Under the pieces are notes generated by a model. That model searched no databases. It saw nothing but the letters and a program-made list of their open reading frames with translations, and was not told the DNA's origin. Shown one piece after another: positions 27,178 through 30,100 of a DNA stretch of 33,341 nucleotides. Within the stretch, counting starts at the first letter, position 1. Each line of letters opens with the position of its first letter. The position numbers were made by a program, and so were the translations under genes. The stretch spans positions 1-33,341 of the forward strand of contig JBGTLG010000017.1 in NCBI GenBank assembly GCA_041744215.1. The letters run 5' to 3'. This stretch comes from Fimbriimonadales bacterium (GTDB lineage: Bacteria; Armatimonadota; Fimbriimonadia; Fimbriimonadales; ATM1).

Positions 27178-30100
27178 GGTTATGAAGCCCTCGACCTATT
27201 AGTATCGCTCATCTTAACACGTTACCGTGCTTACAAACGCGACCTATCAACCCGGTTCTCTTCCGGGGGTCTTACCTGGTTATTCCAGTGGGAGATCTCA
27301 TCTTGAGGTGGGCTTGGCGCTTAGATGCTTTCAGCGCTTATCCCTTCCCGACGTAGCTACCCAGCGTATGCCCCTGGCGGGACAACTGGTACACCAGAGG
27401 TCAGTTCACTCCGGTCCTCTCGTACTAGGAGCGACTCCTCTCAAATCTCCTGCGCGCGCAGTGGATAGGGACCGAACTGGCTTACGCCGTTCTGAACCCA
27501 GCTCGCGTGCCACTTTAATCCGTGAACTCCGGAACCCTTGGGACCGAATTCAGCCCCAGGATGTGACGAGCCGACATCGAGGTGCCAAACCATGCCGTCG
27601 CTGTGAGCGCTCAGGCAAGATCAGCCTGTTATCCCCGGGGTAGCTTTTATCCGATGAACCCTGGCGTGCCCACGCACAACCAGAGGGTCACTATGCCCAA
27701 CTTTCGTTCCTGATCGACTTGTGTGTCTCACAGTCAAGCACTCTCTATACCATTACGCTCAACGGCTGATTTCCGACCAGCCTGAGAGTACCTTTGGACG
27801 CCTCCGTTACCTTTTTGGAGGCGACCGCCCCAGTCAAACTACCCGCCTACCACTGTCTCCGAACCGGCTTACGGTCCGGGTTAGTATTCCAGAATGCAAA
27901 GGGTGGTGTTCCATTGATGCCGAAGCTCCCACCTACGCTCTACAATACATCCCAAAACACAATGATAAGGTGTAGTAAAGCTCCACGGGGTCTTTCCGTC
28001 CTACTGCGCGGAACCCGCATCTTCGCGGGTGCTACAATTTCACCGAGCTTCTCGCTGAGACAGTGCCCAAGTCGTTACGCCTTTCATGCGGGTCGGTATT
28101 TAGCCGACAAGGAATTTCGCTCATTCTGTTCCTCGATTCATTGATCGAGTGAAGCGATTCTGTTTGAGCTGAACCGCTTTCCTACATGTCGCCATGCAGA
28201 TCGGACCATATCTTCTCCGATTTCTCGGAGTTCAGCGTATGGCCTCTGGGGATTCCGGCTGTTGAGCCGGTCTTTCCTGCTGATGGTCTGCACCCAAAGC
28301 ATTGTCACTTACTTTTTTTGCAAGTAGCTTGGGATACTCAGATGTTCCAGCATATAGCTGAATTTTACTAAGGCAGTGTTTGTTCCACCTTAGGACCGTT
28401 AGAGTTACGGCCGCCATTCACTCGGGCTTCGATTCAGTGCTTTGACCTTGCGGTCGAACACCTCCTGTTAACCTACGAGCATTGGGCAGGCGTCAGCCCC
28501 TATACGTCGGTTTTCACCTTAGCAGAGACCTGTGTTTTTGGTAAACAGTCGCCTGGGCTGCTTCGCTGCGGCCTCTCTTGCGAGAGGCGCCCCTTATTCC
28601 GAAGTTACGGGGCCCGTTTGCCTAGTTCCTTAGCGAGAGTTCTCTCGAACGCCTTAGTCTTCTCGACTCACCTACCTGTGTCGGTTTACGGTACGAACGA
28701 ACAAGTGTTAACGCCTATAGGGCTTTTCTCGGCCCCCATCTACTCCAGTTCGCTTCACCCGAAGGATCCACTTCCCCCTCACAAGCGTTTATGCACGTTT
28801 TCACCGTGCCCCGCCTGAGTCGGGCCCACAACAACCAACGGTGTGGGATGGAGCGTTTGGAAGCGTCCTCCTTGGCAACACTTGCCCGGGGACGGAATAT
28901 CAACCGTCTATCCATCGGCTACGCCTTCCGGCCTCGCCTTAGGGATCGCCTGACCCGCCGCTGACGAACATGGCGGCGGAAACCTTGGGTTTTCGGCGCT
29001 GGGGATTCTCACCCCAGTTATCGCTACTCATGCCTACATTCTCACTCGTACGCGCTCCAGCAGTGCTCACGCTCTACCTTCGCTGCACGCACGACGCTCC
29101 CCTACCGATTCACTTACGTGAATCCCAGAGCTTCGGGACACGGCTTGAGCCCCCTTACATTGTCCGCGCAAGATCACATTCGGCCAGTAAGCTGTTACGC
29201 ACTTTTTAAAGGATGGCTGCCTCCAAGCCAACCTCCTGGCTGTTTACGCGATCTCACATCGTTTTACACTTAGCCGTGTTTTAGGGCCCTTAGCTGCTGA
29301 TCTGGATTGTTTTCCTTTTGACGACGGATCTTAGCACTCGCCGTCTCACTGCTACGCTAATCCTATGGCATTCGGAGTTTGATTGGGTTCGGTAACCTGG
29401 TGGGGCCCCTAGCCCATTCAGTGCTCTACCTCCATAGGACAACACGTAACGCTGCACCCAAATGCATTTCGGGGAGAACCAGCTATCTCTGCGTTCGATT
29501 GGCATTTCACCGGACTAACCACAACTCATCCAAAGACTTTTCAACGTCTACTGGTTCGGCCCTCCATGAAGTGTTACCTTCACTTCAGCCTGGCCATGGC
29601 TAGATCACGCAGTTTCGGGTCTGCTCGCACCGACTAGACGCCCTATTCAGACTCGGTTTCCCTTCGGCTTCGCGTCGTAAACGCTTAACCTTGCCGGTAC
29701 AAACAACTCGTAGGCTCATTCTGCAAAAGGCACGCCGTCACCCATTTCCCGATTGCTCGGGACATAGGGCTCCGACTGTTTGTGGGTATCACGATTTCAG
29801 GATCTATTTCACCCCGGTACTCCCGGTACTTTTCACCTTTCCCTCACGGTACTGGATTCGCTATCGGTGACGAATGGTATTTAGCCTTATCCGGTGGTCC
29901 GGACAGATTCACACAAAATTCCTCGTGATTCGTGCTACTCGGGATACCGCCATCTATCGTCGGCTTCGTGTACGGGGCTCTCACCCTCTGTGGCCCAACT
30001 TTCCAGAGATGTTCCACTCACCTATTTTTGAATTCCGCGGTCCCACAACCCCAACCGGCAAGCCGATTGGTTTAGGCTCTTCCGTGTTCGCTCGCCGCTA

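What the first reader, a model, noticed from the sequence alone, without database searches (positions are those of the whole stretch)
28122..28386. Minimal endonuclease-free group I intron at 23S L1931
Seen: complete core (P1 with U-G, P3, P4, P7, P8, P9 plus two P9 extension hairpins, terminal G) in 265 nt with no homing endonuclease ORF; R/S read GGCCA/UGGUC instead of the more usual GACUA/UAGUC. Known: bacterial 23S group I introns are rare; site 1931 is used in Thermotoga, Simkania and organelles, usually with a LAGLIDADG gene. Inference: a late-stage intron that has lost its endonuclease, in a lineage where I do not recall one being described; it would need to splice out to restore the H69-H71 region.
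Basis: partly seen in the sequence, partly recalled or inferred. Interest (0 to 1): 0.75.

Follow-up and report, generated by a model that had tools for sequence, protein, structure and literature searches.

The report
Endonuclease-free group I intron in 23S
The only 23S ribosomal RNA gene of this uncultured hot-spring bacterium is split by a small self-splicing (group I) intron without a mobility gene; the intron is real, but it belongs to a family that public genomes show in many bacterial phyla.

Summary
A 265-nt insert (window 28122-28386, minus strand) splits the 23S rRNA gene exactly after E. coli U1931.

- **Anatomy:** it has a 7-bp P1 with U·G at the splice site, P3-P9 with the P3/P7 pseudoknot, two extra 3' hairpins and a terminal G.
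- **No endonuclease:** no endonuclease ORF lies in the insert. No LAGLIDADG gene was found elsewhere in the 93%-complete assembly.
- **Rfam:** Intron_gpI scores 43 bits (E 1e-9), below its gathering score of 50.
- **Covariation:** 15 related L1931 introns support the fold, with 88% of cells paired against 34-41% when the partners are slid, and 46 of 77 pairs changed on both sides.

It is not rare or minimal. A truncated scan of species-level genomes gave 119 stretches with a non-A base after U1931, and 81 match this intron family, under at least 15 phylum-level labels. 29 of the 69 complete inserts are under 350 nt. ORF-less LSU/1931 introns are already published for archaea.

Relatives in the same order and phylum carry homologous L1931 introns with intact, broken or absent LAGLIDADG genes. 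Loss of the endonuclease is therefore plausible but not proven.

Splicing could not be tested, because no RNA run holds this organism. This scan has noted L1931 introns before on other DNA (CPR, chlamydia, archaea).

Verdict: new member of a known kind, in a host lineage (reportedly Fimbriimonadia) where I found none in print.

The parts
28122..28386 (-). Group I intron, 265 nt, inserted after E. coli U1931 of the 23S rRNA. It starts GGAACAAAC... and ends ...GAAUG (terminal omega-G at 28122).
   Evidence: Boundaries from the exon sequence. Rfam Intron_gpI 42.9-43.2 bits, E about 1e-9. Covariation.
28387..28393 (-). 5' exon strand of P1 (CUAAGGU); U1931 at 28387 is the splice-site U of the U·G pair.
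   Evidence: Sequence, helix map. P1 pairs are kept in 86.7% of cells across 15 introns.
28368..28374 (-). Internal guide sequence GCCUUAG, the 3' strand of P1. The preceding CACU can pair with 3' exon AGCG (P10, 3 of 4 pairs).
   Evidence: Sequence; the same GCCUUAG is seen in many L1931 introns. P10 is inferred.
28357..28362 (-). P3 5' strand UUCAGC, pairing with 28231-28236 (GCUGAA).
   Evidence: 5 of 6 pairs change on both sides across 15 introns; 93.3% of cells paired.
28278..28352 (-). P4-P5-P5a-P5b domain: P4 UGCUGG/UCAGCA, P5 UCUG/CAGA, P5a CCCAAGC/GCUU-U-GGG, P5b UACUUGC/GUAAGUG with an A7 loop.
   Evidence: P5a has 6 of 7 pairs with changes on both sides; the two outer P5 pairs are invariant.
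28250..28277 (-). P6 (GG/CC) and P6a (CCGGCU/AGCCGG, loop CAAC). This is where relatives carry the LAGLIDADG gene.
   Evidence: P6a: 6 of 6 pairs change on both sides, 98.9% of cells paired. Endonuclease ORFs in P6 of L007 and L011.
28204..28244 (-). Catalytic core: P7 5' strand GGCCA (28240-28244), P3 3' strand, P8 CUCCGA-GAAA-UCGGAG (28215-28230), J8/7 AAGAUA, P7 3' strand UGGUC (28204-28208).
   Evidence: First P7 pair G-C is invariant in 15 of 15. The second pair is G·U here and in 3 others, A-U in 11. P8: 6 of 6 pairs change on both sides.
28182..28199 (-). P9 CUGCAUG/CAUGUAG with GCGA (GNRA) loop.
   Evidence: 100% of cells paired; 6 of 7 pairs change on both sides.
28132..28178 (-). Two 3' extension hairpins: P9a AGCGGUUC/GAAUCGCU (28153-28178) and P9b CUCGAU/AUCGAG (28132-28149).
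   Evidence: Predicted in the minimum-energy fold. Shared with the introns of G011 (unpublished genome) and G048. Poorly aligned in distant introns: 45% and 68% of cells paired.
27179..30340 (-). Host gene: 23S rRNA, the only copy found in the assembly.
   Evidence: One match in the own genome to the intron and one to the 5' exon stretch.
26962..27078 (-). 5S rRNA gene downstream of the 23S gene.
   Evidence: Rfam 5S_rRNA 94.6 bits.

Best explanation
This is a genuine group I ribozyme intron without P2, of the lineage that occupies LSU position 1931. It has no endonuclease gene and sits in the single 23S rRNA gene of an uncultured bacterium.

How it most likely works (inferred):
1. After transcription the intron folds.
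2. Its internal guide GCCUUAG pairs with exon CUAAGGU to present the U1931·G wobble pair.
3. A free guanosine bound at the invariant G-C pair of P7 attacks the 5' splice site.
4. The terminal G (28122) then takes the same pocket.
5. The freed 3'-OH of U1931 attacks the 3' splice site, joining ...AAGGU to AGCGAAAUU... and restoring the stretch that follows helix 69.

Having no endonuclease, the intron cannot home by itself. It is most likely a descendant of a LAGLIDADG-bearing L1931 intron that lost its gene. It is kept because imprecise loss from a single-copy rRNA gene would be lethal, and the ribozyme fold is held by selection for splicing.
For: Shown:
- Exact L1931 position and a unique boundary.
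- All core helices, the U·G pair and the omega-G.
- Rfam Intron_gpI E 1.1e-9 genome-wide, the only hit in the genome.
- Covariation on 15 introns: 88.1% of cells paired against 33.7-41.2% when slid; 46 of 77 pairs changed on both sides; 0 of 500 shuffles reach any of the five measures.
- The G-binding G-C pair is invariant in 15 of 15.
- Against the ORF-less intron of G048 (same order, another family; 67-72% identical), of 77 pairs 45 are unchanged, 3 changed on one side, 19 on both sides, 5 broken and 5 gapped. The fold is therefore under selection without an endonuclease.
- Only one 23S copy was found in the assembly.
- An independent contig bridges both junctions with 0 differences, at depth 18.6 against 15.3 for the neighbouring 23S contig.

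For loss of the endonuclease:
- LAGLIDADG_1 ORFs sit in P6 of homologous L1931 introns of the same order (L007 E 1.7e-19, L011 5.5e-19) and the same phylum (L148, L149, L151, E about 5e-21).
- Broken versions exist: L013 has a longest frame of 131 aa, L147 of 122 aa.
- In a tree of 61 ribozyme cores, the window pairs with the 704-nt L147 intron (support 0.76). The 16 short introns need 14 changes of state, as many as shuffled labels (mean 14.4).
Against: - No RNA evidence. The RNA runs hold only 0.17-0.21 of the sampled words, which are conserved parts. The joints that skip the intron have short sides (18-39 nt) and can come from other organisms.
- The Rfam score is below the curated gathering score (43 against 50), and the Rfam alignment puts its first helix on helix 69 of the exon.
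- P10 is weak (3 of 4 pairs, inferred).
- P9a and P9b lack covariation support outside close relatives.
- The direction of change (loss or never gained) is not resolved. Tree supports are modest (0.19-0.84), and no remnant of a gene is left.
- In Thermotoga neapolitana the L1931 intron's own protein helps splicing at high temperature (PMC3984707, passage read). An ORF-less copy in a hot-spring organism has no such helper.
Confidence: 0.85

Rival explanations
1. The intron is a true group I ribozyme by descent but is not spliced in vivo. It stays in the mature 23S rRNA, or the rRNA is cut at it, as was reported for Simkania negevensis.
For: The title of Everett et al. 1999, 'An unspliced group I intron in 23S rRNA...', is in the reference list of PMC11270868. 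I hold no RNA data for this organism. There is no intron-encoded helper protein.
Against: P1 with U·G, the omega-G and the invariant G-binding pair are all intact. 19 compensatory pair changes against G048 show that the fold is maintained, which is hard to explain if the ribozyme were idle. The insert lies in a universally conserved stretch next to helix 69.
Confidence: 0.07
2. The intron never had an endonuclease gene. It is an originally ORF-less ribozyme that spread into this lineage by reverse splicing, or by recombination helped by an endonuclease supplied in trans from a related intron.
For: - No trace of a gene in the 4-nt P6a loop.
- Endonuclease genes sit in at least two different places of this intron family (profile hits break at about position 145 or about 185). 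This suggests repeated gene invasions.
- Presence and absence vary among close kin. Congener G001 (23S 97.4% identical) and 9 more of 12 family genomes lack the intron. A near-identical 23S in sludge run X2 lacks it too.
Against: Broken genes at the same P6 spot in relatives (L013, L147) document decay in this family. The closest core in the tree is a 704-nt intron with a decayed gene. No exon co-conversion tract could be seen, but the flanks are invariant for about 176-188 nt on each side, so this says nothing either way.
Confidence: 0.2
3. The insert is an assembly or binning artefact: an intron-bearing rRNA fragment from another community member was joined into this genome.
For: rRNA genes in metagenome bins are often chimeric. 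The run that holds the sequence best (X1, 0.92 of words) may be the very sample the window came from.
Against: - A separate assembly of X1 gives a 729-nt contig with 0 differences across both junctions, at the depth of the neighbouring 23S contig.
- The 23S gene is embedded in a 33-kb contig between protein genes.
- Its exons are 97.4% identical to the congener's 23S.
- A 90%-identical intron sits at the same site in another genus of the family (G011, unpublished genome).
Confidence: 0.02

Closest known systems
[quoted passage not shown] C9 and S. lividus C1 (Haugen et al. 2007, PMC1995217, Table 1 and text passages read)
   Same: Same insertion site. No P2 and an extended P5 region, as that paper describes for the L1931 introns. 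Host gene is a bacterial 23S rRNA; several hosts come from hot springs.
   Different: Those are 654-700 nt and each holds a 143-167 aa endonuclease gene. This one is 265 nt with none. I did not have their sequences here, so similarity to them was not measured.
Archaeal IB4-type group I introns at LSU/1931 (Nawrocki, Jones & Eddy 2018, PMC6125680, Table 1 and text passages read)
   Same: Same site. By their coordinates many are about 250-400 nt, and 18 of the 39 archaeal introns have no endonuclease gene. One Woesearchaeota record in my scan (L039) matches the profile of this intron family at 76 bits.
   Different: Host domain. The IB4 covariance model of that paper is not available here, so the subgroup of the window's intron is inferred and not scored.
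CPR/Patescibacteria 23S rRNA insertions at position 1931 (J Bacteriol 2024, PMC11270868, passages read)
   Same: Group I introns at 1931, often with LAGLIDADG_1. Five loci with CPR record titles in my scan match the family profile at 45 bits or more (L028, L037, L061, L070, L083).
   Different: Many CPR inserts at this site are only 203-254 nt with a different 5' end, and most of those are not hit by the profile. That paper treats introns in non-CPR 23S genes as confined to a few species.
   Same: Homologous ribozyme cores, 70-79% identical in parts, at the same site. G048 shares the two 3' extension hairpins.
   Different: Family f5 copies have a P2-like hairpin and only GCC opposite exon GGU. 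Six of the seven f5 copies end in A and one in C, not G. Some carry LAGLIDADG_1 genes in P6.

Membership tests
Group I intron (catalytic RNA) | Conserved core helices P3-P9 with the P3/P7 pseudoknot | tested here: met
   All helices can be drawn. 88.1% of cells paired against 33.7-41.2% when slid, and 46 of 77 pairs changed on both sides.
Group I intron (catalytic RNA) | P1 formed by an internal guide sequence, with a U·G wobble pair at the 5' splice site | tested here: met
   Exon CUAAGGU pairs with intron GCCUUAG, U1931·G. U·G is kept in 11 of 15 aligned introns.
Group I intron (catalytic RNA) | Terminal guanosine (omega-G) before the 3' splice site | tested here: met
   The intron ends ...GAAUG|AGCG. 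60 of 68 complete inserts with core motifs in the scan also end in G.
Group I intron (catalytic RNA) | G-C pair in P7 that forms the guanosine-binding site | tested here: met
   First P7 pair is G-C in 15 of 15. Its assignment as the binding pair follows textbook knowledge of Tetrahymena G264-C311 (recalled).
Group I intron (catalytic RNA) | Score at or above the Rfam RF00028 gathering threshold (a database criterion, not a biochemical one) | tested here: inconclusive
   42.9 and 43.2 bits against 50, yet E 8.8e-10 and 1.1e-9. The generic model misplaces P1 on exon helix 69.
Group I intron (catalytic RNA) | Guanosine-dependent self-splicing with exon ligation | not testable with these tools
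   No RNA run holds this organism. This needs RT-PCR or in vitro splicing.
LSU-1931 intron lineage (called IB4 for archaea in PMC6125680; IC1-like without P2 in PMC1995217) | Insertion exactly after E. coli U1931 | tested here: met
   The numbering is from my recalled E. coli sequence (pseudouridine sites U1911, U1915 and U1917 fall on U).
LSU-1931 intron lineage (called IB4 for archaea in PMC6125680; IC1-like without P2 in PMC1995217) | Sequence homology to other L1931 introns | tested here: met
   A profile of 10 introns (window included, G011 excluded) hits 81 of 119 scanned stretches at E<=1e-3. Six of these were in the profile.
LSU-1931 intron lineage (called IB4 for archaea in PMC6125680; IC1-like without P2 in PMC1995217) | Match to a subgroup-specific covariance model (IB4) | not testable with these tools
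   No subgroup models are held here.
Mobile (homing) group I intron | Intron-encoded homing endonuclease gene | tested here: not met
   Longest stop-to-stop frame in or across the insert is 67 aa. No LAGLIDADG_1, _2 or _3 hit in the genome, and none with a relative's endonuclease.

The most novel reading that the evidence does not exclude
The endonuclease-free L1931 ribozyme is not a decaying remnant. It would be a long-lived resident that the host has come to use: in an organism with a single 23S gene, maturation of every large subunit depends on a GTP- and folding-dependent splicing step. That step could act as a checkpoint tying ribosome output to guanosine nucleotide supply or to temperature. 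The evidence does not exclude this. The fold has been kept by compensatory change across families of the order without any endonuclease (19 of 77 pairs). But nothing points to it specifically.
Probability: 0.05. Interest if true: 0.7.

Novelty: new member of a known kind. Interest (0 to 1): 0.28.

Why it matters
For this locus alone, little: it is an ordinary ORF-less group I intron at a classic rRNA site.

Two wider points are worth recording.

First, papers up to 2024 describe group I introns in non-CPR bacterial 23S genes as confined to a few thermophiles and intracellular bacteria (PMC11270868, PMC1995217). Yet a single truncated pattern scan found this intron family at L1931 in 81 stretches. 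Their record titles name Acidobacteriota, Actinomycetota, Nitrospirota, several classes of Proteobacteria, Bacteroidota, Chloroflexota, Deinococcota, Gemmatimonadota and others. A systematic census would probably change the textbook picture of how rare these introns are.

Second, one bacterial order here shows every stage of the homing cycle at one site: intact gene, broken gene, no gene, and empty site in a congener. That makes it a compact natural series for studying gain and loss of rRNA introns.

On the practical side, such inserts lengthen 23S genes, which matters for rRNA annotation.

Tried and rejected
1. Rfam scans of several relatives' loci at once failed with internal errors. I mapped inserts with my own BLAST scripts instead.
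I used a sequence-only nhmmer profile instead, so the family count rests on sequence and not on structure.
3. RNA evidence for splicing:
   - The one run search found six RNA runs, all holding only 0.17-0.21 of the sampled words.
   - In the one RNA run I laid (X15), depth over the intron was 0.2-9 against 1e5-1e6 over the conserved exon parts. The joints that skip 265-266 nt have sides of 23-28 nt.
   - These can come from any bacterium with the conserved exon and say nothing about this organism.
4. Exon co-conversion as a sign of recent homing: G000 and its intron-less congener G001 do not differ within about 176-188 nt on either side of the junction. The test is therefore uninformative.
5. 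Reading the insert as an RNase III-type intervening sequence was rejected, because the core is a covarying group I fold.
6. Reading it as protein-coding was rejected.
7. Two papers I wanted are not held: Nesbø & Doolittle 2003 and Raghavan et al. 2007. I know them only from reference lists and recall.
8. Literature searches for an Armatimonadota rRNA intron found nothing relevant. One search gave 0 papers. One search gave 18 papers holding at least 3 of the 5 terms; none of the 15 listed concerns it by title and abstract. The one 'intron' passage I read, in PMC11535203, is an aligner setting.
9. The 16S gene was sought to check operon linkage, but none is in the assembly.
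Full report
**What is there**

The window holds a 23S rRNA gene on the minus strand (27179-30340; Rfam LSU_rRNA_bacteria 2582 bits) followed by a 5S gene (26962-27078). At 3162 nt the 23S match is longer than the 2925-position model. A focused scan shows one long insert between ...GGUCCUA and ...AGC of the conserved stretch after helix 69.

Read on the minus strand, the sequence is ...AACGGUCCUAAGGU | GGAACAAACACUGCCUUAG ... GAACAGAAUG | AGCGAAAUUCC. Moving the boundary by one base either way no longer restores the universal AAGGUAGCG. 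The insert is therefore exactly 28122-28386, 265 nt, after E. coli U1931.

**Is it a group I intron?**

Rfam's generic Intron_gpI model matches at 42.9 bits (E 8.8e-10 on 411 nt). In a search of the whole genome it scores 43.2 bits (E 1.1e-9) and is the only hit. Both scores are under the curated gathering score of 50, which is why the default scan did not list it. The Rfam alignment also puts its first helix on exon helix 69.

By hand the whole fold can be drawn:
- P1: exon CUAAGGU with guide GCCUUAG, U1931·G at the splice site.
- No P2.
- P3 (UUCAGC/GCUGAA) and P4.
- P5 with the extensions P5a and P5b.
- P6 and P6a.
- P7 (GGCCA/UGGUC).
- P8 with a GAAA loop.
- P9 with a GCGA loop.
- Two more 3' hairpins of 8 and 6 bp.
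- A terminal G.

The single strand folds at -85.8 kcal/mol, z = -4.56, and 0 of 200 shuffles fold as well.

**Covariation**

I aligned the window's intron with 14 other L1931 introns. They were one from an unpublished genome of the same family (G011), one from another family of the order (G048), two from family f5, and ten from the pattern scan; for eight of the ten the record titles name other phyla. I then counted my drawn pairs.

- 88.1% of 1095 cells form standard pairs, against 33.7-41.2% when the 3' partners are slid by 1-3 columns.
- 46 of 77 pairs show changes on both sides.
- None of 500 shuffles reaches any of the five measures.
- Pairs changed on both sides: P3 5 of 6, P5a 6 of 7, P6a 6 of 6, P8 6 of 6, P9 6 of 7.
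- The first P7 pair, which by textbook knowledge is the guanosine-binding pair, is G-C in 15 of 15.
It is not unique.
- P9a and P9b are supported only among close relatives (45% and 68% of cells paired overall), because distant introns align poorly there.

The structure was drawn from the window's own sequence, which favours it in the slid control. The counts of compensatory changes do not suffer from this.

**No endonuclease**

No frame in or across the insert stays open for more than 67 aa from stop to stop. The Pfam families LAGLIDADG_1, _2 and _3 find nothing in the six-frame translation of the own genome (42 contigs, 93.2% complete). Neither does the endonuclease of a related intron used as a query. 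Absence from an incomplete assembly is not proof.

**Is it real DNA?**

- One run search found a hot-spring DNA run, X1, holding 0.92 of the sampled words. It may be the source sample.
- In Logan's independent assembly of X1, a 729-nt contig covers 27820-28548 with 0 differences, bridging both junctions. Its depth is 18.6, against 15.3 for the next 23S contig.
- In sludge run X2, two contigs match the flanks almost perfectly (2 differences in 302 nt, 0 in 163 nt). They stop at 28121 and 28387, and their loose ends read the other exon. This is an intron-less allele in a near-identical 23S.
- The assembly holds a single 23S copy.

**Relatives**

I did not verify this. One genome of the same order is a single 5.2-Mb contig, the size given for Fimbriimonas ginsengisoli in the abstract of PMC4072686 (listing).

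*Own family.* 12 of 20 genomes have this part of the 23S assembled. Two carry the intron (G000 and the unpublished G011, 90% identical). Ten have the uninterrupted junction, among them the congener G001, whose 23S is 97.4% identical. The two-carriers-of-12 count and the 90% figure rest on G011.

*Order.* 15 of 61 genomes, G000 included, match the intron by BLAST.
- G048 has an ORF-less 275-nt intron at the same site. It is 72% identical by BLAST, 67% over the aligned columns, and shares the two 3' hairpins.
- Against it, of 77 pairs, 45 are unchanged, 3 changed on one side, 19 on both sides, 5 broken (all in P9a, probably an alignment offset) and 5 gapped.

*Family f5.* It carries homologous L1931 introns of 318-757 nt.
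- L007 and L011 hold LAGLIDADG_1 genes inside P6 (E 1.7e-19 and 5.5e-19).
- L013 holds the same gene broken.
- L006 and L010 have none.

*Phylum.* 12 of 401 sampled genomes match. Four genomes of family f32 have 704-730-nt L1931 introns. Three hold intact LAGLIDADG_1 genes and one a decayed gene (L147, longest frame 122 aa).

**Beyond the phylum**

- In 69 of them I could find the 3' exon and so a complete insert. 29 are under 350 nt and 40 are 350 nt or more. 68 of the 69 carry loose matches to both core motifs.
- A sequence profile built from 10 introns (window included, G011 excluded) hits 81 of the 119 at E<=1e-3. Six of these were in the profile.
- The other 38 include very short CPR inserts and stretches that look like chance matches or other kinds of insert.
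- Titles of the hit records name Acidobacteriota, Actinomycetota, Nitrospirota, alpha-, beta-, gamma- and delta-Proteobacteria, Bacteroidota, Chloroflexota, Deinococcota, Gemmatimonadota, Ignavibacteriota, Latescibacterota, Omnitrophica, Chlamydiae, Sumerlaeota, Rokubacteria, Thermodesulfobacteriota, Patescibacteria and one Woesearchaeota archaeon.
- ORF-less copies of 251-329 nt occur in several of these (L051, L064, L065, L066, L072, L088, L104, L135).

The window's intron is therefore neither rare in sequence data nor minimal.

**History**

I built a FastTree of 61 ribozyme cores (293 profile columns less the exon columns; G011 left out; only inserts with a profile hit of 45 bits or more). 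It pairs the window with the 704-nt intron of G195 (support 0.76). The short introns are scattered: 14 changes of state for 16 short tips, and shuffled labels give a mean of 14.4. Supports are modest.

Together with the broken genes at the same P6 spot, this fits the usual cycle of invasion, gene decay and loss that PMC1995217 describes. It makes loss of the gene the likelier history for this copy, but it does not prove it. A search for exon co-conversion was uninformative.

**What is in print**

- Haugen et al. 2007 (PMC1995217, passages) list bacterial L1931 introns in Simkania, three Thermotoga species and two Synechococcus strains. All carry LAGLIDADG genes (654-700 nt). The paper describes them as IC1-like, without P2, with a complex P5.
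- The 2024 CPR survey (PMC11270868, passages) finds LAGLIDADG_1 at 1931 in CPR bacteria. It states that rRNA introns in other bacteria are limited to a few species.
- Nawrocki et al. 2018 (PMC6125680, passages) report IB4-type introns at LSU/1931 in archaea. 18 of the 39 archaeal introns have no endonuclease gene, and sizes go down to about 248 nt.
- Hausner et al. 2014 (PMC3984707, passages) note that the Thermotoga neapolitana intron protein aids splicing at high temperature.
- I found no paper on rRNA introns in Armatimonadota and no census in non-CPR genomes. These searches cover open-access full text only.
- This scan has noted L1931 introns on other DNA several times.

**Verdict**

The mechanism (guanosine-initiated self-splicing that restores the stretch after helix 69) is inferred from an intact, covarying fold and is not shown by RNA data. 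The 'lost its endonuclease' reading is plausible. The claim of rarity does not hold against sequence data. It is a new member of a known kind.

Noticed in passing
Loci L005, L006, L007, L008, L010, L011, L013 (family f5) and L147, L148, L151 (family f32), at the L1931 site: Many Armatimonadota L1931 introns do not end in G. Six of the seven f5 copies end in A and one in C; three of four f32 copies end in A. Several of these have intact LAGLIDADG genes. The f5 copies also show only GCC opposite exon GGU, followed by a P2-like hairpin, and their exon reads CCUAUGGU. The P7 G-C pair is unchanged. A Coxiella 23S intron without omega-G is known to me only from a paper title (reference list of PMC11270868). 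Whether these copies splice is open.
   Followed up: partly
Loci L004, L006, L008, L009, L011-L015 (family f5 23S genes): 23S genes of this family carry up to three inserts. After U1923: 668-675 nt with a LAGLIDADG_1 ORF. At GGGGCGGUCGCCUC|CUAAA near the P-loop: 916-928 nt with a LAGLIDADG_2 ORF, E 2.4e-42. At GAGACAGU|UCGGUC in domain V: 306-415 nt. This many introns is unusual for published non-CPR bacteria.
   Followed up: partly
Loci L031, L044, L045, L048, L053, L055, L069, L090, L094, L105, L118, L122 and others (mostly Patescibacteria by record title): Very short inserts of 203-254 nt at L1931, with a 5' hairpin right after the splice site and ends like ...AGGAAUAGAAG. Most get no hit, or only a weak one, from the profile of the window's intron family. 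They look like a separate, even smaller intron type.
   Followed up: no
window 30341-33341 and whole assembly: No 16S gene lies within 3 kb upstream of the 23S gene; two long ORFs lie there instead. No 16S rRNA was found anywhere in the assembly, and there are no tRNA genes in the window. The 23S-5S pair may be unlinked from the 16S, or the 16S was simply not assembled.
   Followed up: partly
Run X2 (sludge) laid on window 27820-28549: A near-identical 23S (2 differences in 302 nt, 0 in 163 nt) without the intron occurs in a sludge metagenome. The intron-bearing form was seen in hot-spring DNA. Close relatives thus differ in presence of the intron across habitats.
   Followed up: no
Loci L030, L035, L042, L043, L054, L056 and others: 38 of the 119 pattern matches show no intron-family hit, and many have no 3' exon within 1.1 kb. 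Some continue into what looks like coding sequence. They may be chance matches, larger inserts or assembly joins.
   Followed up: no
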